Source of the DNA: Octopus sinensis
Taxonomy: Eukaryota
Assembly: GCF_006345805.1 (NCBI RefSeq)
Contig: NC_043015.1
Coordinates: 29,822,001 to 29,886,000 of the forward strand
Length of the DNA: 64,000 nt
Direction: 5' to 3'
Part shown: positions 7,033-49,372 of the stretch, one piece after another
How positions within the stretch are numbered: position 1 is the stretch's first letter
Layout: each line of letters starts with the position of its first letter
Program-made: the position numbers and the translations under genes
Notes under the pieces: generated by a model
What the model saw: only the letters and a program-made list of their open reading frames with translations
What the model was told of the DNA's origin: nothing
Databases searched by the model: none

Positions 7033-7575
7033 TAATATTCTGTATTAAAAAATGATTTTTTTCACCCATAGAGCTAACATCTCTCAGTAATTAATCTTCG
7101 TGATTACTTTCTCTAAATATGCCAGTTTTCCACACCAATTCGAGTTGCATTACGGTAATTCAAATTAGTAATTCCTGTATTACTACTTCCGGAAGGACAA
7201 TGAAAGCCACATAGCTGAGGAGGTCAAATAAAACCGAAACACGTGGAGTTGTCTTCTGTCTGTATGGAAATGAATAAGACAATAACAGTCATTGCACTAA
7301 TGTCCTCTGCTCCTCAGTTCATTAGTATTTCTATTTATCGTGAAGTATGTTTGCCTCCTATTCCACTGCTGGTTTTCATTAAGTTTTCAGAGTAATGAAC
7401 TTCAGTTTGTCGTGTGTGCTTACGTCAGTAGTTAACACATTCAATTATTCAGTTGTGTGTGTGTGTGTGTATGTATATATATATATATATATTATATATA
7501 TATATATATATAATATATATATATGTGTGTGGTGTTGTGTGTGTGTGTGTTGTGTGTGTGTGTGTGTGTGTGTGT

Positions 7576-28803: not shown

Positions 28804-30124
28804 TTAATGGTGAGATGCTGGAAGTGTTTGATCAATTCAAATGCCCTTTTACTACCTTCATTGCCACAAACCAGAATAAAAATGAGAAATGTCAGTATCA
28901 ACAGTGTACATGATGCTCTCTGTTGTCTTCAAGACCAGCTTTGTGTAGGTCAGAAATAAATGTGGCCACAAAAACTGACGCCTGCCAGGTGCTCACCCAC
29001 TCCATCCTGCTATGGATGAGAATGTGATTAATAAGAGTATTGGACTCCTGCAAACTAGAAGGAGTTTACCATGTTTGCTTTCACAGAATCCTCCCATGTT
29101 TGTGTTTTGATTTCTCTGTCAAATTCTGAAGTTTGTTGTCGCTGTCTGGTTGAGTTTTTCCGAAACTGCCGCTAAGAATTGGTTTGGCCGCACATTGTTG
29201 TTTACCAAGCAACCTCATCCATGATGCAGTCACGTCAGAGTCCTTCTCAGGATGGCATGGTTACGGACAGTCGATAATGGGTTTAAGGCTGGTTCTCAAA
29301 TCAACATCTGGCTTATGCATATATGGTGTCTACCATGGGGATCATGATTGGCTGACAATGTCTTATCGGACATCAATAATTATCGTGTGTGATCAGCTTC
29401 TGTTTGTGATACTGCATGAATTCACTGATTTGAACCAGCTTAAATTCATTCTAGATGAACCTTGACACAAATAAATAAGTACCATGCATACCTCACCATA
29501 TCAAGAAGATGATCCTGCTGTTCAGCCTGAACATCTATTGGCACTCCACAATCCTGTGACAGGTTGATTGGACCCCAAATCAATCCCAGATTGAATTAGT
29601 CTTCAAATCAATCCTGGTAAAACAAAATTATGATCAGAGACGTTTTACTTATAACCATCCTTTTTTTTATTCAAACACAGTGCATCTATGACTACATTAT
29701 CTGAAATGTACTAACCTGTTAAGGTAGTGTTTTTTTTTCTTTTCACTGGTTTTAGAGATTCCCATGACTGTTACCATCTAATTCTCTTATTATGAATTTG
29801 AATTTTGAGCTTGAGTCTTAGTGAGTCCTTCATTAGCTGATTACATACCCATGAACACTACCCCTATGAATGCATTGCAGTTACTCTCTTCAAAGAGTTT
29901 GGTGATCCTGACTTCTGACTTTCTAGGTTTTCTCCGCTCATCATCAGTGTAAGAAACACCATTGATTCAGTTGAGCTCTTCCACTGCCTCCTCACAATCC
30001 ACCCTGCTGCAGTCCCATGACTTCACTGTATCTCTGGCAGGGTGGCTGAACGGGTGCGATGCCTTGCCAAGGGGCAGCCCATAGCTGTGCAGGGCATGCA
30101 TCATTCCATAAAGAACTTTCGAAT

Positions 30125-30481
30125 ATATTCGCATACCATGAGCGTGATCATTGCCAGAGCGGCTATCTGGCACGTAAAAGACACCATTCGAGTGTGATCG
30201 TTACCAGCATCGCCTTACTGGCACCTGTGCCGTTGGCATGTGTAAAAGATTCGAGCGAGATCGTTGCCAGTACCACCTGACTGGCTCCGTGCCGGTGGCA
30301 CGTAAAAGCACCCACTACACACACTCGGAGTGGTTGGCGTTAGGAAGGGCATCCAGCTGTAGAAACTCTGCCAGATGAGATTGAAGCCTGGTGCAGCCAT
30401 CTGGTTCGCCAGCCCTCAGTCAAAATCGTCCAACCCATGCTAGCATGGAAAGCGGACGTTAAACGATGATGATGATGATGA
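30125..30481 (+). mobile_element. Family C element
   Basis: Near-identical to 640-957. Confidence 0.85.
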
Positions 30482-30571
30482 CTGGCAAGGTAGAGTGAAA
30501 TTTGATGTATTTTTACATCGATTGGCACATACATTCATGTCTTTATACACACATTAACACAAACATTTATA

Positions 30572-30604
<33 letters not shown>

Positions 30605-30836
30605 CTTTATTTAAAGCAGCAGAAAATTCAACAAAACCTGTTACTCTTAGTTTCCTGTTGCCATTCGTCGGACAGTTTTTTCTAGCAAAAACTGTCCGAC
30701 AAACAGCAACGGGAAACTCAGAGTAACAGGTTTTGTTGAATTTTCTGCTGCTTTAAATAAAGCATATTACTCTACCACTAGTATTTGAGTACTCTTTTTT
30801 TTCCACCTTGTTACACATTTTTGTGTTTACGCCGGT
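30605..30836 (+). mobile_element. Long-hairpin element (about 158-bp inverted repeat plus tail) with variant hammerhead motifs on both arms
   Basis: Inverted repeat 30605-30762 centred near 30684. Each arm reads ctgt CCGACRA..GAAACTMAGAGTA acag. Tail gcatattactctacc...gtttac; flanked by (TA)n. Confidence 0.75.
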
Positions 30837-31787
30837 GTATATATATATATTCTACACACATGCATATAAATGAACAGCTTTTTGTGTGTATATTTCTAGT
30901 GTATTTATTAGATATTGTTGTTGTGAATTGAGTAGTTGCTTCGCAAGTCATTTTGTTTATAATCGCAACTGAGGGGTGGTGGTGGTAATGATGATGATGA
31001 AGGTTGCGGCGGTGGTCTTAATATTATATTCCCTCTGCATTATGCTCCTACCAGGTTTATCCCTCTCACGGCTACTGCTATCAGCTTCTCAGCCTCCCCC
31101 CCCCCATCAACAGCCGCAGCTCTACAGATGAAAGGTGGGGGAGTGCATCTGTTGTATATCTGTAGATGACCTAGTTCGGTTTGTCTACCTGTCTGTCTGT
31201 TAGAGGCAGAGAGAGAGCGAGAGAGAGAGAAGGGTGTGTATAGTGGTGGAATGGTGAGATTTGTGGAGGCAGGATAAGAAGGCAGTGGTAGTCGGGGTGG
31301 GGGATTTGCAGCTAGAGGGGACTGACCTGGTGGTAGTGATGGTGGTGGTGGTTGTAGTACTTGTGCAGCTAAAGGGGATCTGTTAATATGTTAATTATAC
31401 AGTGGCATAGACTAAAAACTATTGGTACTTCACTACTACAACAGCATACCCCACCCTCGCTACCACCGCCGCCACTACCATTCTACCCCCCCCCCCCCCA
31501 CTCATCTTTTTTTTTCATCTGCCAGAATGTATCTTCTAGCTTTTTATACACCATCTGAGACCCCCACCCCCATCTTCTTTCTAACACCACCCTCACCTCC
31601 ACCCCCTGCAACCTCTGCGCCCCTCCCCCCTCTCGCAAATATCATGACACTTCTGCCTTCTTTCTACTTTCTTTGTTCTCCAGCATCTACAAGAAACAAT
31701 TACACACACACGCAGACATACACGTATGCCTGTGTGTATGCATAAATATATATATACACACACACATATATATATACACACACACAC

Positions 31788-31826
<39 letters not shown>

Positions 31827-31839
31827 CACACACACACAC

Positions 31840-31878
<39 letters not shown>

Positions 31879-32487
31879 CACGTACACACACTCACACACA
31901 CATATATATATATATACACACACACATATATATGAGCATCAGAAGCAGGCAGATGCTTTCACATACATATATCTGTACACACACACACACATAAACACAC
32001 ATTCTTTCGATGAATACCCTTATATTTTTACCTTTGTCTCTCGTTTAAATTGATTGTGTGTGTGTTTGCATAGGAAAATTCTTAAAATAATGACCGAGTG
32101 GACCAGAAGTCTGAGTTCTCGATACTAGTTAAAGATGACTGTAAAGCAATTTATATTGTACGGATTATGAAGTTTTAAGCGAAGAAACCCCACTTTTGAC
32201 TATTTCTACAGCTCTTCTGGATATATGTGTGTATACAATGTGTACACACACGTACATGCGTGTAGATGTACAAATAGAGTGCATGTGTGTTTTTGAGAAT
32301 AATTATTTCTGTGTATATATATATATATAGAGAGAGAGAGGAATTATATAAACATATGTAGGAATTATATAAACATATATAATCATGTAGCAACATCAAA
32401 TGGCGGTGCCCCAGCATGGCCACAGCTCGTGAGCTGAAACTAGATAAAATAAAAATAAAATAAAATATGTGTTTGTGTGTGTATGTA

Positions 32488-32524
<37 letters not shown>

Positions 32525-32643
32525 GTATGTATGTATATGTATGTATGTATATGTATGTTTGTATGTATGTATATGTATGTATGTATATGTATATATGTAT
32601 ATGTATGTATGTATATGTATGTATGTATATGTATATATATATG

Positions 32644-32674
<31 letters not shown>

Positions 32675-32682
32675 GTATATGT

Positions 32683-32857
32683 ACTTTATTTAAAATCAGC
32701 AGAAATTTAACAAAAGCTGTTACTCGGAAATGTGGAACTCCGAGTAACAGCTTTTGTTAAATTTCTGCTGATTTTTAAATAAGGCATATTACTCTACCTC
32801 TGGTATGTGAGTACTCTTTTTTTCTCCACCTTGTTACACATTTATGTTTACTCCAGT
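32683..32857 (+). mobile_element. Long-hairpin element with larger central deletion
   Basis: Same outer arms and tail as 33201-33403, but the hammerhead cores are deleted. Confidence 0.7.
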
Positions 32858-33096
32858 ATATATATTATATATATATATATATACACATACACACACGTGT
32901 GTGTCTGTGTGTCCATATGTGTGCATGTACGCATACGTATCGGTAGTACAGATGTCCTTAATACTATTGCTAAAGTATCTGCAAATCTAAAAGAAGTACT
33001 CAGCATGGTCGATGGTATAGCACAAACATACACAAACATATATACATCTGCATTAACATATATATAAATATATATATATATATGTATGTATGTATG

Positions 33097-33127
<31 letters not shown>

Positions 33128-33200
33128 ATGTTTGTATGTATATGTATGTTTGTATGTATGTATATGTATGTATGTATATATATGTATGTATGTATATGTA

Positions 33201-33403
33201 CTTATTTAAAATCAGCAGAAATTAACAAAAGCTGTTACTCGGAGTTTCACGTTCCCGTTCGTCGGACGAACGGAAATGTGGAACTCCGAGTAACAGCTTT
33301 TGTTAAATTTCTGCTGATTTTTAAATAAGGCATATTACTCTACCTCTGGTATGTGAGTACTCTTTTTTTCTCCACCTTGTTACACATTTATGTTTACTCC
33401 AGT
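33201..33403 (+). mobile_element. Long-hairpin hammerhead element with collapsed centre
   Basis: Minus-arm motif about 33232-33268: gt CCGACGA acg-ggaa-cgt GAAACTCCGAGTA acag; same tail as 30605-30836. Confidence 0.72.
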
Positions 33404-33974
33404 GTATATATATATATATCTACACATACACACACGTGTGTGTCTGTGTGTGCATCTACGCATACGTATCGGTAGTACAGATGTCCTTAATACTATTGCT
33501 GAAGTATCTGCAAATCTAAAAGAAGTACTCAGCATGGTCGATGGTATAGCACAAACATACACAAACATATATACATCTGCATTAACATATATATAAATAT
33601 ATATATATATATGTGTGTGTGTGCTAGAATTCTCTTATGTTTTGGCCTTCCTCTTCACACTTTTACATCTTCTGCTCATACTACCATGTAGCCCCCCCCC
33701 TCCCACCCCCTATACTATAACAATAATAGTAGGGAACAGTCTCAGAGAGATTTGACTATTGCGAGGCTCCCCCTCTTCCTTCCTTACTACATTATTTATA
33801 GAATGATATTTCAGCTACCTTCAGCCTGCTGAGCACACACACACACACAGAGGCATACATTATCCAGTTTAGTACATACATACTCGAGGATGTTAACCTT
33901 ATGGTGGTTCGTGCACGTTAATTCATGCATATTGTATGTGCATATATACATATATATACATGTATCTCTTATTA

Positions 33975-34030
33975 TAATATATAAATAAATGTAAATATAT
34001 ATACATATATGTATATATAAATGAATGTAA

Positions 34031-34061
<31 letters not shown>

Positions 34062-34573
34062 AATAAATGTAAATATATATATAGATGTATATATAAATAA
34101 ATGTAAATATATATATATATGTATGTATAAATAAATGTAAATATATATATATAATATATGTATTGTATATATAAATAAATGTAAATATATATATATATAT
34201 GTATGTATATATAAATAAATGTAAATATATATATATATGTATGTATATATAAATAAATGTAAATATATATATATATGTATGTATATATAAATAAATGTAA
34301 ATATATATATATATGTATGTATATATAAATAAATGTAAATATATATATATAGATATGTATGTATATATAAATAAATGTAAATATATATTATATATATATG
34401 TATGTATATATAAATAATGTATAAATTATATATATATATATATGTATATATAATAAATGTAAATATATATATGTATGTATGTATATATAAATAAATGTTA
34501 AAATATATATATATGTATGTATATAAATAAATGTAAATATATAATATGTATGTATATATAAATAAATGTAAAT

Positions 34574-34604
<31 letters not shown>

Positions 34605-34610
34605 AATAAA

Positions 34611-34643
<33 letters not shown>

Positions 34644-34650
34644 ATAAATT
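33975..34650. repeat. AT-rich minisatellite (ataaataaatgtaaatatata.. unit, about 35-45 bp)
   Basis: Repeated core with variable TA spacers. Confidence 0.88.
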
Positions 34651-35030
34651 ATATATACTAATACATACATATATACACATGTATGTATACCCCGATGATG
34701 TGTGTTTATAGTGGTACAAATTTACTTTTGATATGTCTGCGGATACTCTTATCACATCACCAGCTGTGTATGTGTATATACACACACACACACACACTCA
34801 CGCGCATACATTCACCTACATTATCAAATATATAACGTATGGATACCCACATATTTTGCTCACTGAATGCATGTAGATTTACATTCAAATACCCAATCAC
34901 ATGTATAATACACACACACAAACAATTCATTGGCCCCCCCCCCCCCCGGAAATATATAAACATATGCTATTTTGCATCCGTTGTGTACATACAGAATTAT
35001 GCTCACATCATTGGATGTACGTTTGTGTAT

Positions 35031-35081
<51 letters not shown>

Positions 35082-35919
35082 GCATGTGTGTGTATATACA
35101 TATATGTATATCTCTATATACATAGTCACTCGAATACATCACTAGCTATATATATATATATATAGTGTGTGTGTGTGCATGTATGTGTATATACATATAT
35201 GTATGTCTCGATATATATAGACACTCGAATACATCACTATATGTATATGTGTGTGTGTATATATAATATATATATATATACACACATGAGCACAGTCACT
35301 AAGCTGGTAAGGGTAGTGATACTGGTGCATGTGGTGCGTGTATTCATGAATGTATACATTACTAGATGTTTTATGCACTTCTTCATGCATAATGCATACA
35401 ATTTTATATACTCATACATAACTAAATGTGTAACATTTTCATAATCTACACGTGTATACACACACTCTCTCATGTATACACATAAAAAGTATCTATTGTC
35501 TATAATTTTTGTACACTCCTCCCAAGCACACCCATATGATTGATTGATTCTAGTTTCAGCTTATGAGCTGTGGCCATGCTGGGGCACCGTCATTTATATG
35601 TATTATATATATATATATGTATAATTAGTTTAGTGATTTATGTTATTGTAAGCTACTTAAGGTAGCTAGTTGGTCAAGTTTGGCCAGCTGACCTCTCAGT
35701 TTGGTCATGTACCTCATGAATACACATTTGTATGCATGTGCATGCATGCACATACACATGTGCACACATGATTGTTGTTGCTTCGACCCCCCCCTTTTTT
35801 TTTTTGCTACTCTTAGAAAAAGAAGGGTTCTACACATAAACATATTTCCCCTCCTTCTCTTTGCCCCATCGCACTTAAATCGTAATCTATTTTCACACTT
35901 ACACTATTTGGTGAAGTAG

Positions 35920-36245
35920 CAATAGTGCTAGTCAGCTGCATATTCAATCAGGTAGTACAGGGAGGCATCACACCTAATAACTGCCTTAGCAAGCATAATC
36001 ATCGACTAACTGTTACAAGGGCGAAGGAGATGCTCTTAGAAAGCAGCAATTACAGAGGTATCAAGGTGATGGGCCAGATCATGAAGGTAACAGAGTTGGA
36101 TGCACAAACTGATTAGAAAGTGAATTAGCTTAGAGGAGATGCAGTTTGTGTCTGTGCCAGGACGAGTACCACTAATGTTCCCTTCTCTAGTGAGACAATT
36201 TACAGGAAAAGTTTTAGCTAAGACTTAACCGCTGTACTTATGTAC
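35920..36245 (+). mobile_element. Decayed RTE-clade reverse transcriptase fragment
   Basis: SNYRGIKVMGQIMKVTE ... ISLEEMQFVSVPG ... QEKFLAK across frameshifts. Confidence 0.75.
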
Positions 36246-38018
36246 TTATGCTGTTAGTAAGGCGAGGCCTGTAAGTGAATTCACTTGTGCTGGTGGCATG
36301 TGAAATATTCAAGCGAGAACGTCGTCAGTGCCGCTGGACTAGCTCCTGTGCAGGTAGCATGTAAAAAGCACCATTTGGGCGTGGTCGCTGCTAGTACCGG
36401 TTGCACGTAAAAGCACCCACTACACTCTGGGAGTGGTTGGCGTTAAGAAGGGCATCCAGCTGTAGAAACTCTGCCAGATCAGATTGGAGCCTGGTTTGAC
36501 AGACCTCAGTCAAATTGTCCAACCCATGCTAGCGTGGAAAGCCGATGTTAAATGAGGATGATAGATTTTTGTCAGTACTGAGTTCTTAGTCCCCTTTTGT
36601 TTGTTATAGTTCTCCAGGGCATTAGAGAGGAACTGGCTTCTCTCATCTCCCAGCATAAAACCATCTCCTGCTCAATTGTTGCCTTTTGTTCATCAATGCT
36701 GAGTTTCCAGTTCCCTTTTTTTTTTTTATAGTTTTCAAGGGCATTAGAAATGAAACTGCCCCTTCTCTAATACTTTAACGCCCCCAATCTCCTAACATAA
36801 AAGCCACTGCCCTCTCTACTGTAGCCCCACTCAGTGAATAGAGGTCTTAGTCATGCAAAGTTTATGATGGCCGCACAAGTTTTGGTGCCACAAAGACAGG
36901 GTGGGGGAAAAGCACCCCTTACATGCTGTAAAGTGGTTGGCATTAAGAAGGGACATCCAGCCTAAGAAGCAGTGCCAAAGTAGATATTGGAGCATGATGC
37001 AGTCCTTGGACCTGTTGGGTTTTGTCGAGTCATCCAACCCATGCCAGCATAGAACATGGGCATTAAATGATGGTGGTGATGATGATGATGGCTGTCTGTA
37101 AGAATTCCTGTATGCCATGGCCTGGTGTTCGTAGCTGTATCTGTCAAAGATTTACAGAATTTCCAAATATGGAAGCAAAGTCTAGAGTTGAGAGGCTTCA
37201 TTGTGAATCTAGCAACATCAAACATTTTAGTTTACAAGGGAAGTACAACCCATCCTTTGGACATCCAAAATGTGGTTATGCAGAAAAGGAGTACCTAGAA
37301 ATGCCCTAAGGTGTACCCACATGAGAATAGTGGGGTCAGTAGTAGACTAACGGAGAAGGAAGAGTTCACATGTAGCAGATATGGAGGAGTTAACAGTAAA
37401 AGTACTAGTGAAATAATATTTGAATGCTTACACTGCTTTGTAGTTCTTTGGTGATCTGATTAACTGTGGAGATATCTGAAACCATAGTAAGTAGAATAAA
37501 AACATTGCGGAAAAACTTCAAATTATTAATTTTATTGACATCAATGGAATCGGTTCTTTGTGTCACAGACAGATTGCATGATGCTTGTGTGTGTGTTGAC
37601 CTCTTCGTCAGTTCCATCCCCTTTTTTGTCCATACTGGCATGGGTTGAACAGTTCCAACTTAAACACATGAGCCACAGAGCTCCACTGTCTGCTTTGACG
37701 TGATTTCTACTGCTGGGTACCCTTCCTGATGCCAACGATAATGCTGGTGCCATGAAAAAAAAAGCACTGGTGAAGTCAAGAGAAGAACCTTCATCTAAGT
37801 GAGACATAAGTATTGGGGGAGATAAGTGTTGTACACTCCTACAACACCATTTTCTTTACATGCTATAAAGGCTGAAGGAAATCTGCCTTCAACTCAGGGT
37901 AGGCAGTTGGTGACCTTTATGTCGTAAAACACAAAAAGTAAGCAAAACACAGGCGTGCGACTGAGTAATTACTGACAGCACATGCCTGGTATATATGTGT
38001 GTGTATATATATATATAT

Positions 38019-38303
38019 CACCATGACCAACCAGGCTATCAGATGTTGCTACACATTGCTGGTCACAATGTGCTTTGCATTGTTTTAGCCTTCAAATGAT
38101 GCCACCCCGCTGGCTAAGCGAGCAGGCCAACAGAAGAAAGAGTGAGAGAAAGTTGCAGTGAAAGAGTACAGCAGGGATCGCAACCACCCCCTGGTGGAGC
38201 CTCGTGGAGCTTTAGGTGTTTTCGCTCAATAAACACTCACAACGCCCGGTCTGGGAATCGAAACCGCGAGTCCGCTGCCCTAACCACTGGGCCATTGCGC
38301 CTC

Positions 38304-38307
<4 letters not shown>
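38019..38307 (-). mobile_element. tRNA-derived SINE (third family; OR1-like)
   Basis: Minus-strand head ggaggcgcaatggcccagtggttagggcagcggactcgcggtttcgattcccagacc with A and B boxes; inserted in (TA)n. Confidence 0.78.
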
Positions 38308-38338
<31 letters not shown>

Positions 38339-39169
38339 TCTTCTAAATGTTTTGCGTTCTTGTCCCAGTATATATATTATATATACATATATATATAAAA
38401 TGCATGTGTACACAAACACATACCTATATATATGCATGCACACACACTCACAACTATGGATGTAGTTATGAATCTCTTTATTGCTCTTTTAAGATTTATT
38501 TCACTTAATAGATAGTGTCTGTTTGGACATTGAATTATCTCCTACAGCCTACATTTTACAAATCTGCCAAATATTTCCATATTGGGTTTTTCTTTTTAAT
38601 TTTATTTATCAAGTAGGATGATGTGAAAGTCGCTTTTGTCAATAAAGTAAAATACAGCATTTTCATTTTATGGCTATTGACCAAAAAGGTTTGCTAGAAG
38701 CCTGTAGAAGCTAATCAGCTGATGGACATTATTTTGCCTGCAACTTGGACAGGTTTCTTGGTGAGGTTTCAGTGAAACGCCATCATTACACGTTTATTCA
38801 TCTGTATCTAATTCATTTATTCGCTTAACCTTTCTAAGTCCAGAGCAACTGGCAGAAAAGCATAGTTACACACTCCTGGCAGACCTGCGTTTTGACTAGT
38901 TTTCTCTGGCTGCAGTGGTGGTGGTAGGTGTTTGCTGCCTACACACTATTGTTTTTTAATAGGTTAGCCTTTGGACAACTAATCTTGCAGTTAGAAACAT
39001 AAGAGCTGTAGTGGTACTGGTGATGGTATGATGGCAAAAGTGGGAAAATTTCAATTGGCTGAATGGCAGTGTGCTAGCAGAATTGTTAGCATGCCGATCA
39101 AATTACTTAGCAGAATTTCATCTAAGCTGATAGGACCCTACACTCTTCAAGTAGGTGGCCCTGTTTGAT

Positions 39170-40248
39170 TTGTACTAAAGGTGTAAACAGGAACTCCATA
39201 CGGTGTACTCAGTGCAAGCTATGGATACTCAAGTGATGCACTGGATTAATTAATTGCAAGGTTATCAGAGAAGATAGTTTCTGTGTGTGGAAGATGCACA
39301 GGCTCCATAAAAACTTCAGAGACTCAGGAAATTGATTCTCTCAAATGCCCTGTTGCTCATTAGAGGTAGTAGATAATTTTGCTACCTAGGGGACCAAATT
39401 AGTAGAGGAGGATGCACGGAAAGTGTGATAGCTAGAATAAGAATAGGATGGAAGAAATTTAGAGAGTTGTTGCCTCCGTTGGCCATGAAAGGTCTCTCTC
39501 TCAGAGGACAAGTAAAGGTTAAGGAAGGAATGAGGCTAGTATGCTCCGCTCGATGTGTCATGTAAGCGTACATGTTTGACAGAGTACCAGTGGTGTTCTC
39601 TGTCTACCGGAGAGAGGAGTTAGGCGTAAGAGGAATTGGGCGCTGAGTGCAAGAGAGAAGTTTATGCTGGTTTGGTCATGTGATGCGGGTGGATGCTGAC
39701 AGCTCCTTAAAGAAGTGTTGATCTCTCAAAGTGGGTGGAACATATGGGAGTGGGAAACCTTAGAAGACCTGGGATGAAGCAGTAAACGTCGACCTCAGGA
39801 AGGTGAACCTTTCAGGCAAGATGACAAAGGACCAAGACACCTTGGCACCTGGCTGTACTCAAGAAGGCCTATACCCCACAGCGAAAGTGTTAAGACTGAT
39901 CCTTCTGGTAGTGTAAAGCGCTTGTGGCAGTGACATGTTAAAGCACCCGTGTGGTACCACATAAAAGCACCCGCGTGGTACCACGTAAAAGCACCCGCGT
40001 GGTACCACGTAAAAGCACCCGCGTGGTACCACGTAAAAGCACCTGCGTGGGACCACGTAAAAGCACACAGCTGGTGCCATGTAAAGTGCCCAACACACTC
40101 TGTAAAGTGGTTGGCATTAGAAAGGGCATCCAGTTGTAGAAACCCTATCAAATTAGACTAGGGTCTGGTGCAGCTCCCCAGATTGCCAGCTCTGGTCACA
40201 CCATCAAACCTATGCCAGCATGGACAACATCTTAAATGATGATGATGA
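39170..40248 (+). mobile_element. Decayed RTE-clade LINE 3' portion (Cys-rich finger, post-RT region, 3' UTR with 24-bp tandem repeats, (GAT)n tail)
   Basis: Broken reading frames give GVNRNSIRCTQCKLW...CGRC, YLGDQISRGGCTESVIARIRIGWKKFRELLP and LCWFGHVMR...GKP*KTWDEAV. The 3' UTR carries about five gtggtaccacgtaaaagcacccgc units and ends gatgatgatg. Confidence 0.85.
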
Positions 40249-40387
40249 CTATTAATTATGATAGTAGTATTCCATCTACAAAATTCACCCAGAAGGCATA
40301 GGTCTATAGTAGAAGACACTTGCCCAGGACTGTATGTTTACATTATTTACATTTGACGGATATTTGTCCTCATCTTGTTTGTTGTTA

Positions 40388-40431
40388 ACACAACATTTCG
40401 GCTGATTTACCCTCCAGACTTCATCAGGTGT
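40388..40431 (-). ncRNA. Minimal type I hammerhead motif (partly decayed)
   Basis: Minus strand: acac CTGATGA a gtctg-gagggtaaat-cagcc GAAATGTT gtgt. Confidence 0.65.
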
Positions 40432-40709
40432 CTTGGGGAAATTTCGAACCTGGATTCTCATTCCTAAGGTATTTTACGATATTATTATTATTATTATTAT
40501 TCAGGTCACTGTCTGGAATCGAACTTGGAATCTTGGGGTTAGTAGCCCACGCTCTTAACCACTACAACATATGCCCGAGGGCATATGGCATAGTGGTTAA
40601 TGGCTCTGATAGCTGTGGGGAGAGTGCTTTAGGATTGAAAAGAGGGTGGACAGACTGCTATTTTTAACATACCTCAGGAATAAGAACTCGGGTTCAAAAT
40701 TTCCCCAAG

Positions 40710-40753
40710 ACACCTGATGAAGGTTGGAGGGTATATTAGCTGAAATGTTGTGT
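40710..40753 (+). ncRNA. Minimal type I hammerhead motif (partly decayed)
   Basis: acac CTGATGA a ggttg-gagggtatat-tagct GAAATGTT gtgt; stem I acac/gtgt. Confidence 0.65.
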
Positions 40754-40995
40754 TAAGGGAGTTAAGTTGTAGGGTGTTGTGGTTAGTTAAACCATTCTCT
40801 CACCATTGGGTGAATAATCTTGTTTGGAATTATCTGCATTTATTAGACTTACAATTAGCCCTGTTTAAGTCTCTTTTTCAACCAAGATACAATGATTTAG
40901 TGAATGACCTACCTTTATAGCATTGTTTCTGAAGCAGTCATTGGACCAATAGATCTGGGTCTAAACAACTTGTTGAATGTATTGGCCTAATTTAA

Positions 40996-41216
40996 CCCTT
41001 TCGTTACCAACCCAGCCAAAACCGGTTCTGACTCTGTTGTACAAATGTCTTGTTTTCATAAGTTTTGCATTAAAATCTTCCACCAAACCTTAGTCGCAAT
41101 TTGTATACCTAACACTAGCTGAATGATAACTAAGTTATTTTATTAAATTCTTTGTTATATTTAAAATAATTGGAAGAAACACAGAGCATCTCAAAATAAA
41201 TACAGTAACGAAAGGG
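40996..41216. mobile_element. piggyBac-type MITE (family 1), opposite orientation
   Basis: TTAA|CCCTTTCGTTAC...GTAACGAAAGGG|TTAA with a perfect 12-bp TIR. Confidence 0.88.
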
Positions 41217-41937
41217 TTAAAAGAAATTCCCTATCATCTTTATGGTGGGGGTCAGTGTCTTTCAAATCCTAAATCTTATGGACAAAATGCTCTGTTATAA
41301 AGACAGAATGTCTACGGCTACAGATATCTACAGAATCCTTTGTTTGATTGGTCAATCTTAGTGCAGAGTTGAGCAGACCTAACCAACACCACTCTCTTGT
41401 TTATAAAGACATTTAAATCAAAGATAAAACAGGATTAAAGTATTTCTGGAACTGTTTGAATTAAATTGGATTTCTGTCTTGTAAAGCTTGGCAGTTGGTT
41501 GGAAAATTAGAATTTCTTCTGTTGATATGTTTTAGAAATCTCTTAATACATACTTTTCTTTAAGCCAATTACTAGTGTTAAAGACTCTTCAAGTCGGTTA
41601 CTAATGTTAATTTACCTTACTAACTCTACTTTGCTTCAAACTATGTTACTGGTATTGACACAACTTTCCTTCATACCAGTTACTAGTGTTTTTTTTTTTT
41701 TTATCACAGACTTTTATTCCAGCCGGTAGCAAATGTTCATGTATATTCTTCAATTTAACTCCTGTTAACATAGACTTCAAATCAGAGTCATTGAGTTTTT
41801 TTTTTTATTTTTTTTTTTATTTTATTGTTACCTCTCTTGCTAATTAATTATTAAGCTCATTTTCTCAGCCTGTAAACACCTCTGCTTCAAATTAAGCCAG
41901 GAAATTAAATGTACCAGATCATTAACACTGGCTATTG

Positions 41938-41976
<39 letters not shown>

Positions 41977-42213
41977 ATGTAGTACGTGTGTGTGTGCATT
42001 CCTTGTATTTCCAATTAGAGTATGAATCAAAAGAAAATCTTTGTAGAGTTGAGTGAGTAACCAGTTGCTATTGAAGAATTAGTTGAAACGTGTGTGGCTG
42101 CCTATCTATCCATGTTTAAACTAATTTGCTGACTGTAATGATGGCCTACTTTTTGTTTCAGGTTCTTTTTATAAAGATTCTATTTAGATTAAAATAAAAA
42201 GCCATTTCTTTAA

Positions 42214-42436
42214 CCCTTTAAGCATTCAGATTACTCTGTCAAATGTAAAGCCTGTTTAATCACATTGTTTTAACTTAATTGTACAGCATCTTGTAACTCT
42301 GAGATTTTGATGACGTCCCTGTTTAATTTTTAGAATGACTTTGTAGGGTAGGTGTGAGAGGTCAGAGCTGGCTGGTTTGAGCATATAACAGGAAGACAAT
42401 TTTGGCCTGGTATGGCCCGGTTTAAACACTAAAGGG
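42214..42436. mobile_element. piggyBac-type MITE (family 2)
   Basis: TTAA|CCCTTTA...TAAAGGG|TTAA. Partial copies lie at about 22548-22594, 23368-23414, 46905-47752 (split) and 57905-58049. Confidence 0.78.
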
Positions 42437-43246
42437 TTAAACTAACTGCCATCCTCAAACCAAGACAAGTTGTCCTATTGCGGTTGACAATGTCATGATC
42501 ATCTCTTTCCTAATCATCATCGTTTTTGTCGTCTGTTTTCATTCCGTTATTTATCATCATCATGCCCCCACCCCCCATCTTTTTGTTTCAACAATCCGTT
42601 TGTCTATATTGACAGTAAATTTGAGTAAATGTAATGTATGACTAACTTTCTTTTATTGTTTTTAACCATTGCAATGTGGCCATGCTGGAGTGAATTACTA
42701 AGTTTAATTTCTAGTGTAAAGGGATGTAACTTCAATTCCTAATAACCACAAGATATATTTTTGTTCAGTTTTACACTGACACACACACATACGTGATGAT
42801 CTTCCACACAGTTCCTGTCTATGCCTTCAAAATTTCACACAAGGCATTGGCTAACTCAAGACAATGATAGAAGACACTTGGCGGAAGTTTTGTACAGCGA
42901 AACTGAACCCAAAACCATGAAGTTATGAAACAACTTCTTAGCCACACTGCCACGTAAACATTTAAAATGCAGATCCAATGTTCCTTTTACATCTATATGA
43001 CCTTTCTCCCCTTTACTTTAACTGTACATCTGTACATGAATATGTGTGTGACCTCCCCCTTACAGAAACTGGACATCTATGTGACACTCCCCTTTACCCT
43101 AACTGTACATCTGTATGACCTCACTTCTGTTACAGTAACTGTATATCTGTGCGATCCCTCCCTTTATTCTAACTGAACATCTGCGAGGCCTCCCTCTTTA
43201 TTTTGAAATTCTTACTACATGGATATATTGGTTATATATATATATA

Positions 43247-43598
43247 TCGCCTTACTGGCACTTATGCCCCATGCTAGTAGGGTGCTAAGAGCACCATCCG
43301 AGCGTGATCGTTGCCAGAGTGGCTAACTGGCTTCCATACCAGTGGCATGCCGTTGGCATGTGTAAAAAGATTCGAGCGAGGTTGTTGCCAGTACCGCCTG
43401 ACTGGCCCCCATGCCGGTGGCACGTAAAAGCACCCACTTCACTCTCGGAGTGGTTGGCGTTAGGAAGGGCATCCAGCTGTAGAAACTCTGCCAGATCAAG
43501 ATTGGAGCCTGGTGCAGCCATCTGGTTCGCCAGCCCTCAGTCAAACCGTCCAACCCATGCTAGCATGGAAAGCGGACATTAAACGATGATGATGATGA
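43247..43598 (+). mobile_element. Family C element
   Basis: Near-identical to 640-957. Further copies lie at about 2710-3140(-), 3455-3725(-), 7970-8125(-), 27920-28215(-), 36270-36562(+), 36890-37090(+), 50095-50222(-), 56075-56332(+), 62760-63081(+) and 63890-64000(-). Confidence 0.85.
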
Positions 43599-44340
43599 TA
43601 TATATATATATATATTCCACCACAACTTCACATCCTACTCTAACTAATATCTGTTTCAACCTCATTTCCAGCAAGTTAGTTGATTGTGGCCATGCAGTGT
43701 CATTATGTACAGAATCATTAATTCACTGACAGAAAGGCTTCTTGTGGTCATAAAAGACATTAGTGTTACATTGTTAAAACTCAATAGTTTATAGGTTTAG
43801 TTAATAGTAATGCAACTGGTCTACTGAGTTATAGTCATGTGTCTAGTAAACATTGTTTAGTTTCACTGTAAAAATAAAGCCCTGTAGTTAATTAAACCAG
43901 CGGGCTGTAGTTTTCACAATGAAGCTAAATGTATGTTAATTAAACATATGGAATATAATTTTTTATATTCATTCAAAACCATGGCACTCTAGTCATTACT
44001 GCTCACTTGGTTTATTTAGCTTAACGACAAATTCTGTGAACCATTTCTCAGTTTTCAATCTAGATGAAAAGTTGAGATGGTCATGAGTGAGATGTCTTTT
44101 GGCACAGGTTTGGGAGGGGTTTCTTTCAACTAATGATACTGGTAGATCATTGGGTGTGTGTGTGTCTGTCTGTAAGGAATTCCTAAGAAGTCTGGAACCA
44201 GTAGATGTAGAATATTAGCTGGCTTTCTGTTCCCAATAATATTGTATCTAATCATAAGCCTATTTTAAAAGTTGGTATCATATGTATGTATGTATGTATG
44301 TTTGTGTGTGTGTGTGTGTATATATATATATACATACATA

Positions 44341-44528
44341 TAGGGAGAGTTTACGAAAAAAACAAAAGACGAAGACGGGTGGTGTACAAAACAAACAGAT
44401 GTATTAGTATAACACTCAGGAATAGAAAAAGTCTTTTACAATTTGAGCCTACGCTCTTCTACAGAAAGGGACACAGAAAAACAAGGAGAGAAAAAAATGT
44501 GTATAGTGGCTAACGATCAATCATGGCG
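44341..44528 (-). mobile_element. PLE-type short element with degenerate hammerhead (44433-44468)
   Basis: Minus strand: cttt CTGTAGA a gagc-gtag-gctc AAATTGTA aaag. Stems I and II are preserved, the core is mutated. A related fragment lies at about 26200-26262. Confidence 0.55.
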
Positions 44529-44817
44529 ACTATATACATACACACACATATACACACCCATTCATTTTACATCTGTTTTTTCATATGAGCATGGGTTTGA
44601 TGAATACATATTATTGAAGCATTGTTTTACAGCTGATAACAAAATACCTGTTTTTCAAGTAAAAGAGGTTTTCATTCAACTTGTCTTTGAAAGCGTAGAG
44701 CTCCTGGACAATTATTTGACTGGAGGATATTAAACATCATTGTCCGCAGTTCAGCTCAGAATATAAACATTAACACAGATGCATGCAGGTGACTACATGA
44801 CAGGCAGGCTCTGTATT

Positions 44818-45047
44818 GGCGAGCTGGCAGAAACGTTAGCACGCTGGGCGAAATGCTTGGCAGTATTTCATCTGCCGCTACGTTCTGAGTTCAAATTACG
44901 CCGTGGTCAACTTTGCCTTTCATCCTTTCGGGGTCGATAAATTAAGTACCAGTTACGCACTGGGGGTTGATGTAATCGACTTAATCCCTTTGTCTGTCCT
45001 TGTTTGTCCCCTCTATGTTTAGCCCCTTGTGGGCAATAAAGAAATAA
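44818..45047 (+). mobile_element. Family A SINE
   Basis: Full-length copy flanked by an aggctctgtat direct repeat. Confidence 0.88.
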
Positions 45048-47049
45048 GGCTCTGTATATTTTCCTATTTATGAAATTCACTCACAAGGCACTTGTCATCC
45101 CGGGGCTACAGTAGCTGACAGTGGCCATGGCCCAAGAGGTCATGTCATGGGACTGAACCTGAGACCATGTGGTTGTGAAGCAAACTTCTTAGTCACACAT
45201 ACTCTCTCTTCATCTCACTTTCCCCTCCATTCCTCTCTCTTCCCCTTTCCCTCTCTTCCTTTCCCCCTCCTTCCTACCTCCCTCTCATACAACCCCCCCC
45301 CACGCACACATACACCTGATGAGCTTTATTTTATTGAGAATGGCATACAAGCATCTAATTTTCAGAATGCAGCACTCATTGGATTAGCGTGTGTATTTCG
45401 TAGAAGTGGCTGAGTATTCCTGACACGTGCTCCCCTTATGTGATTCTGAAATAGAATTACCATTACATGGCATCATGAAGCTGGACCATTAAATTTCAGG
45501 ATCCCTCTGCAAGGCTGCTACTCAGTTGATATCTCCTTAATTACACTGACAGGGTTTGGATTAATCTGATGCTACAGCAGTAAGACATTCCATCCACCCC
45601 AATAACATCTTTTATCTGAGTGGGTTGGAATTCAGGATCTCATGTCTGTGAACTAAACTTCTTTACCATTGTGCATGCCTGAGAGAGGGAGAGGGCAAAG
45701 GTGAGAGAAAAACTTACTGCTCGTACCATTCTACCTTATTGATGAAAATGTTTCACAATGTGTGGCCATAGGAATGATATAAAATATACATACATACGAC
45801 TTCTTTCAATTTCCATCAACCAAATACACTCACAAGGCTTTGGTTGGCCTAGGGCTATAATAGAAGATACTTGCCCAAGGTACTGTGCAGTGGGACTGAA
45901 CTTTAGACCCACATGGTCAGGAAGCAAGCTACTTAACCACACAGTCATACCTGTGTCCATTTGCAATTCTTTTTTTTAAAAATCTCTTTGTTTCTATAAA
46001 AAAAAAATTATGGAAAAGCAAAATACAAAAATTTAATTAAAATATAAAAGCCAAAATAGAAAAATTTAAGAATCTCTCTAAGAATTTTTCTATAAAAAGT
46101 CTCAGTTAGTCAGTGTGCTTTAAATAACTTTGGTATGGATGTGGTGCCATTATCTAATCTTCGTCCCTTTTTTGGTGTGTGCTTTATCGTGGCTTCTGTC
46201 TTCTTCACGATCAAATCTCCTATTGTTATCTGTCTCAGCACACGCTCATACTTGTATACATTATTTATTAATAAATCACTAAATTCTTAGGATGGTGCTC
46301 TAGCATGGCCACGACTTAATGGCTGAAACTAGTTAGAAAGAGAGAGAGAAAAAAAAAGAACAAAGTCCTATTCTTTTCAGCTTTCAGAATTTGTAATAAA
46401 AATAATTTTTTAGTTTAGGCACAAAGCCTACAGTTTTGAGGGGAGGGGCAACTCAGTATCATTAACCTCAGTACTTGATTGGTACTTTATTTTATTGACC
46501 CTGCAAAGATGAAAGACCTTGTCGATCAGTTCTGTATCTCCCTGTATAGGAACTGTTGTTAGTTGAGGCTCCAGGTCAGCTCTGACTGAGCAGAACAATG
46601 ACCAAAGGTGTTCCAACCATGACTATTCTGCCTTTCTCTATTGTACAGTGTATCTTTTGGTACTTATTGAGGCCATCATTTAGCACAATTGCTCTCAACC
46701 AGGGTCCATATAAGATTTTTGGAGGTTCATGGAAGCAAAATAGTAAAAATAAGTACCCACTGTAGTATTTTAAGGGTTCGTGAAAATATTTCCTTTTAGA
46801 TGTATTTATTGCAAGAAACGGTAAGATTTCTATCTCTAATGTTTTACATAGTTCAACCTTCATAAGTTGATGTGTGAACAGCAAAATAGGGAGCTAATTT
46901 CTAACCCTTTTATTTATTCACACTGATTTCAATTAATCTTGCATTATTTTGTAGCTTTGATATTTCAATGATGTGATTGTTTAAATTTTACAATGGCATT
47001 GTAGGGTAGCTGTGACAAGCTGGACATGGCCAGTTTAAACATAAAATAA

Positions 47050-47708
47050 GGTGGCGAGCTGGCAGAAACGTTAGCACACCAGGCGAAATGCATAGCCATA
47101 TTTCATCTGCCATTACGTTCTGAGTTCAAATTCCGCTGAGATCCACTTTGCCTTTCATCCTTTCGGGGTCTATAAATTAAGTACCAGTTACTCACTGGGG
47201 TTGATGTAATCGACTTAATCCTTTTGTCTGTCCTTGTTTGTTCCTTCTATGTTTAGCCCCTTGTGGGTAGTAAAGAAAGGAGAAATGTTAGCATGCCGGG
47301 CAAAATGCTTAGTGGTATTTCGTCTGTCGCTACATTCTGAGTCCAAATTCCGCTGAGGTCAACTTTGCCTTTCATTTTTTTTGGGTCAATTAAATAAGTA
47401 CTAGTTAAGCACTGGGGTCGATATAATTGACTTAATCCGTTTGTCTGTCCTTGTTTGTCCTCTCTGTGTTTAGCCCCTTGTAGGCAGTAAAGAAATAGGT
47501 ATTTCATCTGTCTTCACATTCTGAGTTCAGATTCCACCGAAGTCGACTTTGCTTTTCATCCTTCCGGGGTCTATGAAATAAGTACCAGTTACGCACTGGG
47601 GTCGATATAATCGACTTAATCCATTTGTTTGTCCTCTCTGTGTTTAACCCCGTGTGGGTAGTAAAGAAATAGGTATTTCGTCTGTCTTCACATTCTGAGT
47701 TCAGATTC
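47050..47708 (+). mobile_element. Family A SINE tandem array (three units plus a partial one)
   Basis: Repeated units ending gtaaagaaa; later units restart at ggtatttc. Confidence 0.85.
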
Positions 47709-48265
47709 TGATTATTGGGGGTGGATGTGGCCAGTTTAAATACTAAAAGGTTACCCATCGAACAGCTATGAAGGTCCATCAGAATGAAATAGTAATCAAA
47801 GGGTCCATAGGCAGAAAATGGTTGAGACCAACTGATTTAGCAGGTGCATGACCAAAGATCTAAACATCTAAGCTGTGGCCGTCCTGTCTTTAATTTTATG
47901 TTTCAGGTGTAAGTGTACCTTGGGCTACATTATTTAATTGGTCCATTTATTGGAACGTGGTTGATGATGATTTTGTTATTCCTTCTAAATTTGAATGTGA
48001 TCTTCTCTAAACAAAGGCAATTGTAATGCTTTTATGGAATCAATCTTTGAAAGGTAAGGTTGGGGAGGATGGGGTAGTAGTGAAGATGATGCCAGTGGTT
48101 ATGTGATGGTGGTGGGGAATAATGATAGCGGGGGTGGTGGTTAAGATGACATTGGTTAGGTGGTGGTGGTGGAGGTGGTGCTGGTGGCATCAAAGAAGAC
48201 TAGGATAGCAGCAGCAGTGATATTCAATGAGGAGTTTATTGACGATAGTAACAATAAAGAGGAAG

Positions 48266-48329
<64 letters not shown>

Positions 48330-48331
<2 letters not shown>

Positions 48332-48563
48332 GGAGTAAACACATAAATGTGAAACAAGGTGGAAAAAGAGTACTCAAATACCAGGGGTAGAGTAATATGC
48401 TTTATATAAAAGCAGCAGAAAATTCAACAAAACCCGTTACTCTGAGTTTCACGTTCCCGTTCGTTGGACAGTTTTTGCTAGAAAAAACTGTCCGACGAAC
48501 AGGAACGTGAAACTCGGAGTAACAGGTTTTGTTGAATTTTCTGCTGCTTTTAAATAAAGCATA
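48330..48563 (-). mobile_element. Long-hairpin hammerhead element, same family, opposite orientation
   Basis: Inverted repeat about 48396-48564. Plus-arm motif 48488-48525 reads ctgt CCGACGA acaggaacgt GAAACTCGGAGTA acag; the mirror motif is at 48434-48471. Confidence 0.78.
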
Positions 48564-49372
48564 TATATATATGTTAGCAGAGGTGGTTGTTGCTATTGTT
48601 TAACCCCGGGTCAGCTCTGATTGAGCTGACCCTCATTGATCAAAAGGCCTTCCAGCCATGAACATCATCATAATCATCATTTAATGTTCACCTTCTTTGC
48701 TTGGAAGAGTTGGACCGTTTGACAGGATCCAACAAGTTGGGAGGACTGCATCAAGCCCCAGTTACCGTTTTGGCATGGTTTCTACAGCTGGATGCTCTGG
48801 AGCTCTGGCTGCTATTTCTAGCAGGATGAATGACCATGTAGCGGATTCTTTGTTGGTACATATGGAAATGATGTTATTGGTGGCAGTAATGGATAATTTT
48901 TTTTCATTTTAACCTTTCGGTTTTTTTTTCCTCATTTCAGTATTTTTTAATTTTTATTTTACTAATTTTTTTTTTTATTTGATGTTTATTTTATTCTTCA
49001 CACGTAACAACCATATATATACGTTGGGGGTTGAGTGGTGGGTGGTGTGTACCATCATCTCAGTTGTCAGCCAGATCAGATGGCAGGTGGGGGTTTCTCC
49101 TCTGCCCCCTCAAGTCTATTTCCTCTTGGTTGTGTTTCCATCCTGGTGATACTCAGCAGATTTAATTTTGGTGGCTTCTTTCTTCTTGTTCATCACTTGT
49201 AGCAGCTCCGGCTTTCTGCTTTTATCTCCCGTATTGATTAGTCATTTGATAATAATTTGATATGTAATGTTTGGTGGTGGTGGTGGTGGTGGCCGCCATG
49301 TAGTGGTAGTGTTGGCAGTGCTATCGGTAGCAGTGGTACTGGAAGAGAAATTGGAAATGTCAGAGAATGATT

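What the first reader, a model, noticed from the sequence alone, without database searches (positions are those of the whole stretch)
48330..48563. Family of long-hairpin elements with back-to-back variant hammerhead ribozymes (CCGACGA core)
Seen: four copies (30605, 32683, 33201, 48330) of an inverted repeat plus a fixed tail, always in (TA)n. The inverted repeat is about 160 bp in the two intact copies. Each arm folds on paper as a type I hammerhead: stem I ctgt/acag, core CCGACGA, stem II acg-GGAA-cgt (or cg-GCAA-cg, both GNRA loops), GAA, self-complementary stem III ACTC-n-GAGT, cleavage triplet GUA. Position U4 of the canonical CUGANGA is C in every arm, so this is a family trait rather than decay. 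Established: Penelope-like elements carry minimal hammerheads with palindromic stem III that work as dimers, and often have inverted ends. Inference: a non-autonomous PLE- or retrozyme-like family with a non-canonical catalytic core, presenting a ribozyme whichever strand is transcribed.
Basis: partly seen in the sequence, partly recalled or inferred. Interest (0 to 1): 0.85.

Follow-up and report, generated by a model that had tools for sequence, protein, structure and literature searches.

The report
Penelope retrotransposon stubs with U4C hammerheads
These hairpins are short two-armed stubs of a Penelope-like retrotransposon; its older subfamilies carry a hammerhead ribozyme motif with a rare U-to-C core change that likely stayed functional in the parent elements, but in the stubs the motif is predicted to be locked in double-stranded RNA.

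Summary
The hairpins are real but are not a separate ribozyme family. Each is the 3' end of a Hydra-like Penelope-like element (PLE): a tailed copy joined to a tail-less inverted copy, inserted in (TA)n. Full-length parents with pLTR-ORF-pLTR and intact 711-aa ORFs exist in the same genome, 92% identical to the window copies over the last 155 nt. Inverted arms run from under 100 bp to 2.8 kb. The window's junction, at a CTAG quasi-palindrome, recurs in five subfamilies, so it is a truncation hotspot. U4C is a true trait of the older subfamilies (only 91 of 1490 exact matches have U4), including ORF-bearing copies. The youngest, intact-ORF subfamily has canonical U4 (97 of the first 100 of 2499). 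An ORF tree shows one U4/C4 switch; branch lengths suggest C4 is older and U4 a reversion. Across subfamilies the core and stems stay fixed while free positions drift, which suggests the C4 hammerhead was under selection. 'A ribozyme whichever strand is transcribed' fails: the hairpin beats the hammerhead fold by about 60-70 kcal/mol on both strands. Cleavage is untested.

The parts
48330..48563 (.). Short PLE insertion (subfamily CCGACGA / GGAA loop): tailed 3' end on the - strand joined to a tail-less inverted 3' end on the + strand, in (TA)n
   Evidence: 92% identical over 156 nt to the 3' end of full-length copy L139
48330..48399 (-). 70-nt 'tail' between the inner and outer fixed 3' ends (inferred two reverse-transcription start sites)
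   Evidence: in full-length copies L139/L140 the sequence after the tail runs on into the ORF leader
48434..48471 (-). Hammerhead motif of the tailed arm; C4, with a G5A decay mutation
48472..48487 (.). Junction of the two arms at the T5-G-CTAG-A6 quasi-palindrome (CTAG at 48478-48481); recurrent truncation hotspot
48488..48525 (+). Hammerhead motif of the tail-less arm; core CCGACGA intact, stem II broken (A.C); predicted cut after 48521
30605..30835 (.). Second independent stub (subfamily CCGACGA / GCAA loop / CGG); tail on the right; same CTAG junction
30638..30675 (-). Hammerhead motif, core CCGACGA intact, changes in stems II and III
30692..30729 (+). Hammerhead motif with G8A decay mutation
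33201..33402 (.). Older, more diverged stub (about 83% to L139) with collapsed centre; one core (C3 at 33265, - strand) lacking its 5' stem I strand
32684..32856 (.). Tandem-duplicate of the 33201 stub with a larger central deletion; no hammerhead core

Best explanation
The hairpins are 3' ends of an autonomous Hydra-like Penelope element, each made of a tailed arm and a tail-less inverted arm in (TA)n, and were likely produced when reverse transcription primed from both nicked target strands stalled early and the two cDNAs annealed. Shown: identity with the parent's 3' end, two fixed 3' ends 70 nt apart, one tail per insertion, variable junctions. Inferred, by analogy with the anole PLE PAc: the RT/GIY-YIG protein nicks both strands of (TA)n; one cDNA starts at the outer site (with tail) and the other at the inner site (without); both read through the uncut hammerhead; where they stop about 15 nt upstream of it, they pair across CTAG with two G.A mismatches and are filled in. 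The two strands of that heteroduplex would give exactly the two centre forms seen (T5-G-CTAG-A6 and T6-CTAG-C-A5). The hammerhead belongs to the parent's pLTR, where it would act as a slow, dimeric or protein-assisted self-cleaver between tandem pLTRs. Older parents carried U4C; the youngest has U4, probably a CpG-type reversion. In the stubs the motif is a passenger, predicted to be locked in an ~80-bp duplex on either strand.
For: Tail-anchored search led to long copies running into an ORF end. L139 is inverted copy + 5' pLTR + ORF + 3' pLTR + tail + (TA)n; inverted arms of 0.98-2.8 kb in L138-L142. Intact 711-aa ORFs in L191, L202, with 1075 homologs at E<=1e-30 and RWK, YRDD, YTG..FKxR, CxxC, CRH motifs. 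ORF-bearing C4 copies: L173-L176 and 14 of the 28 loci with a readable core, including L260 with an open frame over residues 118-711. 96 of 100 short hairpins have exactly one tail; arms agree in subfamily in 63 of 69 typed pairs; the CTAG junction occurs in five subfamilies. In the canonical-U4 listing, 5 of 20 divergent pairs have the window's spacing (46-47 bp) and the rest range from 41 to 4024 bp (hand count). Inner end: 126 of 268 arms stop at it and 122 continue into the tail. Folding penalty 62.5-69.2 kcal/mol for whole stubs, against 2.7-8.6 in long-copy context. PAc primes both strands, starts RT at two sites that define the tail, and does not need hammerhead cleavage for insertion (PMC11167929). 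Inverted 5'-truncated copies and tails are standard PLE features (PMC8557442).
Against: The dual-priming step is inferred; no intermediate was observed. Samples were picked by BLAST or exact patterns, so junction frequencies and ages are biased. 2 of 100 hairpins have two tails and 2 have none; 6 of 69 pairs have arms of different subfamilies. The outgroup was too distant to root the tree (branch 1.73), so C4-before-U4 rests on terminal branch lengths (means 0.031, 0.016, 0.009, 0.004). Pfam, PDB sequence and profile searches did not recognise the ORF as RT or GIY-YIG; that rests on motifs, on homolog annotations (PF26215, PF28514, one PF01541) and on by-eye match to the published Hydra alignment. 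ViennaRNA does not score tertiary contacts or protein help.
Confidence: 0.85

Rival explanations
1. The ~235-bp hairpin is itself a non-autonomous element (retrozyme- or SINE-like) copied from hairpin templates by the PLE protein, with a working ribozyme on either strand.
For: Many copies share the same length and junction (30 of 30 loci, aligned; these were picked for likeness to the query). A stub transcript would carry both RT start sites.
Against: The same junction appears in five subfamilies, including the canonical-U4 one, with both arms switching together. Junctions and arm lengths vary continuously up to kilobases. Hammerhead fold disfavoured by 58-69 kcal/mol even co-transcriptionally. 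Arms are antisense, not tandem; retrozymes are defined as tandem repeats with a hammerhead in each unit (10.64898/2026.07.22.740005).
Confidence: 0.06
2. Each hairpin arises by fold-back of a single cDNA on the CTAG quasi-palindrome (self-primed second strand), not from two primed cDNAs.
For: Junctions sit at short palindromes (CTAG, GAATTC, GATATC, TTTAAA). Arms agree in subfamily in 63 of 69 pairs and some share private variants (e.g. L095).
Against: Fold-back should copy on through the tail, yet the second arm stops at one fixed inner site. It gives only one centre orientation, while both occur. 6 of 69 pairs have arms of different subfamilies, L025 at two diagnostic sites.
Confidence: 0.2
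3. U4C inactivated the ribozyme; the parents transposed without cleavage and the motif was conserved only as an RT-binding or 3'-end signal, with the return to U4 a neutral CpG transition.
For: U4C lowers activity considerably in vitro (PMC3088659). PAc hammerhead mutants insert normally in vitro (PMC11167929). The non-ribozyme stretch and tail next to the motif are at least as conserved (91-99%) as the motif (87-92%) between old and young copies. Stem II also lost its first pair (A-U to A.G to A.A).
Against: Only 5 of 38 positions differ between subfamilies and three are the free ones (N7, GNRA N, loop 3; chance about 0.001 before allowing for CpG). Of 8 CpG positions only C4 and C7 changed between subfamilies, while G5A, G8A and stem II CpG changes are common in individual copies (6-17 of 273 each). 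A 10.1/11.1 mismatch is normal in Hydra hammerheads (U.U in 14 of 26 rows). A viroid U4C variant still cleaves.
Confidence: 0.4

Closest known systems
Hydra clade of C-terminal EN+ Penelope-like elements (Craig et al. 2021, PMC8557442; read: passages, section 11, supplement tables S1/S2 and alignment excerpts)
   Same: Single ORF of ~710 aa with RWK, DKT, no CCHH, CxxC and CxH around E and N; (TA)n targeting; inverted 5'-truncated copies (noted there for Penelope-13_HM). The Hydra-2_aMil hammerhead has the same stems: ctgt/acag, actc-g-gagt, cleavage after GUA.
   Different: All 26 Hydra hammerhead rows listed have CTGA; here older subfamilies have CCGA. Stem II is only 2-3 bp plus a GNRA loop. 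The second Cys of the CxCX5C linker is Phe (Cys in 58 of 58 homologs). Unit is 3.35 kb because of a ~1 kb 3' UTR. ORF start and hammerhead differ from Hydra-1_Obim, so this is another family.
PAc, Poseidon-clade PLE of Anolis (PMC11167929; read: main text parts 1-2)
   Same: Two RT start sites near the ORF start that define an optional tail; AT-rich target; both strands primed; hammerhead upstream of the start sites and copied uncut.
   Different: Different clade; tail here is 70 nt rather than 30-40; here the genome preserves thousands of minimal two-armed products.
U4C (CCGA) hammerhead variants of peach latent mosaic viroid and the citrus viroid-like RNA CtaHVd-LR1 (PMC3088659, PMC9608096; read: passages and one section; the 1998 primary paper was not available)
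   Same: Same core substitution.
   Different: There it is a rare sequence variant in an RNA replicon with canonical helices; here it is fixed in retrotransposon subfamilies with at least about 1400 exact genomic matches, in a minimal, dimer-type fold.
Minimal PLE hammerheads and the U3-A8 core variant of Schistosoma (Cervera and de la Pena 2014, PMC4209133; read: parts 1-2, supplement passages)
   Same: Type I, palindromic helix III, low activity expected; paired motifs on opposite strands 100-700 bp apart were already noted there.
   Different: The core change reported there is U3-A8, not U4C.
Animal non-LTR retrozymes (10.64898/2026.07.22.740005; read: part 1)
   Same: Non-coding, PLE-derived, type I hammerhead.
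   Different: Retrozymes are head-to-tail tandem units; these are single head-to-head stubs.

Membership tests
EN+ Penelope-like element | pLTR-ORF-pLTR partial tandem with tail and optional inverted 5'-truncated copy | tested here: met
   L139, L140, L191, L200
EN+ Penelope-like element | ORF with RT and C-terminal GIY-YIG endonuclease | tested here: met
   Motifs FD..DFYP, G.YDG, YRDD, YTG..FKxR; homolog annotations PF26215, PF01541. No direct Pfam or PDB hit.
EN+ Penelope-like element | Hammerhead motif in the pLTR | tested here: met
Hydra clade | RWK and DKT motifs | tested here: met
   RWK at 37; DKT in L202, L137, L260 (EKT in L191)
Hydra clade | No CCHH; CxxC and CxH beside the conserved E and N | tested here: met
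   C667-x-x-C670, C695-R-H697
Hydra clade | CxCX5C linker | tested here: not met
   Second Cys is Phe (564) in U4 and C4 copies; Cys in 58 of 58 homologs. Hence filed as Hydra-like.
Hydra clade | Insertion into (TA)n | tested here: met
Hydra clade | Generally under 3 kb | tested here: not met
   Unit 3349 bp
Hydra clade | Placement inside the clade in an RT tree with the published families | not tested
   Only a by-eye match to the published alignment
Type I hammerhead ribozyme | Core C3 U4 G5 A6 N7 G8 A9, G12 A13 A14 | tested here: not met
   U4 is C in the window's subfamilies; all other core positions are met; met in full by the youngest subfamily
Type I hammerhead ribozyme | Stems I-III and NUH cleavage triplet | tested here: met
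   Pairs kept in about 242-266 of 273 arms per position except 10.1/11.1; applies to single arms, not to the whole stub
Type I hammerhead ribozyme | Covariation in stems | tested here: inconclusive
   Stems nearly invariant within the family; they covary across Hydra families in the published table
Type I hammerhead ribozyme | Self-cleavage | not testable with these tools
   No raw RNA reads available
Non-LTR retrozyme | Head-to-tail tandem units each with a hammerhead | tested here: not met
   Head-to-head single insertions
Non-LTR retrozyme | Circular RNA | not testable with these tools
   -
MITE / foldback DNA transposon | Symmetric terminal inverted repeats and fixed structure | tested here: not met
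   96 of 100 hairpins have asymmetric ends; arms are pieces of an RT-encoding element

The most novel reading that the evidence does not exclude
This PLE lineage ran for most of its history on a catalytically active, attenuated U4C hammerhead kept by selection, then reverted to U4 as stem II lost its first pair: a natural tuning series of a retrotransposon ribozyme preserved in thousands of datable copies. The mixed-subfamily hairpins record a dimeric RNP that primes both target strands from two different RNA molecules.
Probability: 0.3. Interest if true: 0.62.

Novelty: new variant of a known kind. Interest (0 to 1): 0.4.

Why it matters
The role of hammerheads in PLEs is an open question. 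This family offers matched natural alleles (C4 with a 3-bp stem II, C4 with A.G, U4 with A.A) from elements that each amplified, so cleavage rate can be set directly against transposition success. U4C as a fixed retrotransposon trait was not found in the papers searched (the Lunse 2017 paper could not be read), and CUGANGA-based screens would miss such families. The stubs are also a large genomic record of PLE integration (two fixed RT starts, one tail per insertion, heteroduplex junction forms) that fits the single in vitro study. The element class and the inverted layout are already known, which caps the interest.

Tried and rejected
Rfam scan of 30000-49000: no hammerhead family at E<=10, only miRNA-type hairpin hits below gathering score. 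GIY-YIG (PF01541) search for the parent returned Neptune-like PLEs with unrelated ends; 3 of its 30 loci held our element only as a bystander. Pattern search for a non-hairpin upstream returned other junction forms, not the parent. Pfam, PDB sequence and profile searches did not recognise the ORF; BLASTP against a Neptune-like ORF gave only E=7e-5. No structure model was obtained. Rooting with another Hydra-like family (L269) failed: branch too long (4 of 57 rows dropped as repeats of the same or an identical place). Expression and cleavage: no RNA holder listed on record, only assembled contigs, so no RNA ends could be read; this is no evidence either way. Earlier findings: nothing by sequence, place or words. 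Lunse 2017 and Ambros & Flores 1998 are not held; one supplement of PMC4209133 was not searchable, and bioRxiv supplements were not seen; any of these may list U4C PLE motifs. MITE/foldback and retrozyme readings rejected (see membership).

Full report
Observation. The four copies exist. Two are intact: a ~165-bp inverted repeat plus a 70-nt tail in (TA)n (48330-48563, 30605-30835). The other two (32684, 33201) are one older insertion inside a local ~518-bp tandem duplication, with collapsed centres; 32684 has no hammerhead core. Position 4 is C in 5 of 5 surviving cores, but every arm has some defect (G5A, G8A, broken stem II or III, missing stem I). The family is large: 3639 first-look candidates and 6427 matches to a 22-nt tail motif with at most one mismatch, against 0 for the reversed control.

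What it is. A search anchored on the tail alone (67 matches, 30 fetched) returned copies whose upstream side is not a hairpin but a ~1 kb UTR leading into an ORF end. L139 shows the whole layout: 2.8-kb inverted truncated copy, 5' pLTR, ORF, 3' pLTR, tail, (TA)n. In the 5' pLTR the tail runs on into the ORF leader. Intact 711-aa ORFs are in L191 and L202. The window copies match the last ~155 nt of L139 at 92%. The protein has 1075 homologs at E<=1e-30 and the motifs that Craig et al. 2021 (PMC8557442) give for the Hydra clade: RWK, DKT, CxxC, CxH, no CCHH. It departs in two ways: Phe for the second Cys of the CxCX5C linker (Cys in 58 of 58 homologs) and a 3.35-kb unit. Pfam and PDB searches did not recognise it directly. 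The published Hydra-2_aMil hammerhead has the same stems I and III and cleavage triplet. I file it as a Hydra-like EN+ PLE.

Why hairpins. Of 100 short divergent pairs in my loci, 96 carry exactly one tail, 2 two, 2 none. The 3' ends are two fixed sites: of 268 arms read at the inner site, 122 continue into the tail, 126 end there on (TA)n, 20 are other; public contigs show loose (TA)n ends at the same two places. Arm length is not fixed: 0.98-2.8 kb in L138-L142. Among the first 100 canonical-core matches, 20 divergent pairs are spaced 41-4024 bp, 5 of them at the window's 46-47 bp (hand count). The CTAG junction occurs in five subfamilies, and the arms agree in subfamily in 63 of 69 typed pairs. 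So the window's form is a hotspot made again and again, not one replicating hairpin. PAc primes both target strands and starts RT at two sites that define the tail (PMC11167929). Applying this (inference): one cDNA starts at the outer site, one at the inner; both copy the uncut hammerhead; when they stop just past ...GCTAGAA they can pair across CTAG with two G.A mismatches. The two strands of that duplex read T5-G-CTAG-A6 and T6-CTAG-C-A5, and both forms, plus the repaired palindrome, occur relative to the tail. Six pairs have arms of different subfamilies, one (L025) at two diagnostic sites, which would fit two RNA templates; recurrent mutation or gene conversion could explain some. Single-cDNA fold-back remains a rival.

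Is the stub a ribozyme? On either strand the antisense arm is made first. Forcing the hammerhead fold costs 62.5-69.2 kcal/mol in the whole stubs and 58.5 in the shortest transcript that contains it; in long-copy context the cost is 2.7-8.6. Cofolding two isolated arms gives the intermolecular stem III expected of dimer-type PLE hammerheads, but a stub holds only one sense arm per strand. The stubs are therefore predicted to be dsRNA hairpins, not bidirectional ribozymes. Whether they feed siRNA or editing pathways was not tested.

The U4C core. With 11.1 = G or T (older subfamilies) there are 1490 exact 35-mer matches, of which 91 have U4; 96 of the first 100 listed have C4. That 6% fits CpG decay from C4 parents. 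With 11.1 = A there are 2499 matches, and 97 of the first 100 have U4. All 30 loci found with the young ORF have U4 (query bias applies). C4 also sits on ORF-bearing copies: L173-L176 and 14 of 28 readable loci found with an older ORF end, one with an open frame over residues 118-711. A tree of ORF 3' ends (53 rows) is a ladder with one C4/U4 change on a 99/98 branch. The outgroup could not root it. Mean terminal branches fall from 0.031 (window-type CCGACGA/GGAA, 3 rows) to 0.016 (other C4, 11), 0.009 and 0.004 (U4; 9 and 30), which suggests C4 is older and U4 a reversion; intermediates exist (L159, L246). The T>C change at position 4 is in contigs of 4 of 4 public runs, under three organism codes.

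Was the C4 motif under selection? Among 273 arms (a selected, not random, sample) five of 38 positions differ between subfamilies: N4, N7, the N of the GNRA loop, loop 3 and 11.1. Three are the free positions. Of eight CpG positions only C4 and C7 changed between subfamilies, although G5A (11), G8A (6) and stem II CpG changes (8-17 each) are common in single copies. The UTR upstream is about 80% identical between old and young copies, the motif 87-92%. Against this, the stretch and tail beside the motif are as conserved or more (91-99%), stem II lost its first pair, there is no within-family covariation to test, and PAc does not need cleavage to insert in vitro. I put function of the C4 ribozyme in the parents at a little better than even.

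Against what is known. U4C is reported as a rare viroid variant that lowers activity in vitro yet supports infection (PMC3088659; PMC9608096). All 26 Hydra hammerhead rows in Craig's table have CTGA; the core variant described for PLEs is U3-A8 (PMC4209133). My searches found no PLE family with fixed U4C, but the Lunse 2017 paper and repeat databases could not be checked.

Verdict. Real feature; known kind of element and known insertion geometry; new family with a non-canonical hammerhead core fixed in its older subfamilies. Interest 0.4.

Noticed in passing
L191:559-2691 residue 564; also L137, L174, L260: The linker zinc-finger Cys that is invariant in 58 of 58 homologs is Phe in both U4 and C4 subfamilies, yet (TA)n targeting is kept.
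   Followed up: partly
L061-L070 (e.g. L063:174-3874, L064): Young Neptune-like PLE families with intact ~780-aa RT/GIY-YIG ORFs; the L063 family has a separate upstream 479-aa open frame overlapping the RT ORF start.
   Followed up: no
L064 (- strand, about 2735) and L034: A Neptune-like family hammerhead reads CCGAAGA in L064 but CTGAAGA in L034; only these copies seen, so a second U4C case is not established.
   Followed up: partly
L063, L065-L069 downstream of the ORF (e.g. L063:4852): Recurrent hammerhead-like string with TTGATAA (U3-A8 type core); stems I and III not worked out.
   Followed up: no
L176:6598-7500 and L269:3-692: A second Hydra-like family with the canonical CxCX5C linker, inserted next to a C4 copy; no hammerhead found in the 1.3 kb after its ORF.
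   Followed up: partly
window 7215-7255 (+): Single decayed hammerhead-like motif (CTGAGGA...GAAAC) unrelated to this family; no second copy in the loci held.
   Followed up: partly
window 15527, 44894, 47129, 47346, 47530, 53933, 54107, 59930, 60117, 60619, 61463: Eleven copies of a SINE-like repeat (family D19); recalled as a cephalopod SINE, not checked.
   Followed up: no
L139:3760-3774 and all pLTRs: The junction hotspot follows a pyrimidine-rich TTCTAG that resembles a 3' splice site just upstream of stem I, where the Drosophila virilis Penelope intron is reported to end (PMC4209133); no splicing evidence here.
   Followed up: no
L019, L022: Stubs with a tail on both arms (perfect ~300-bp palindromes): both cDNAs would have started at the outer site.
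   Followed up: partly
L113, L145:221-290, loose ends: More diverged relatives of the terminus also carry CCGA, hinting that C4 goes back further than the subfamilies typed here.
   Followed up: partly
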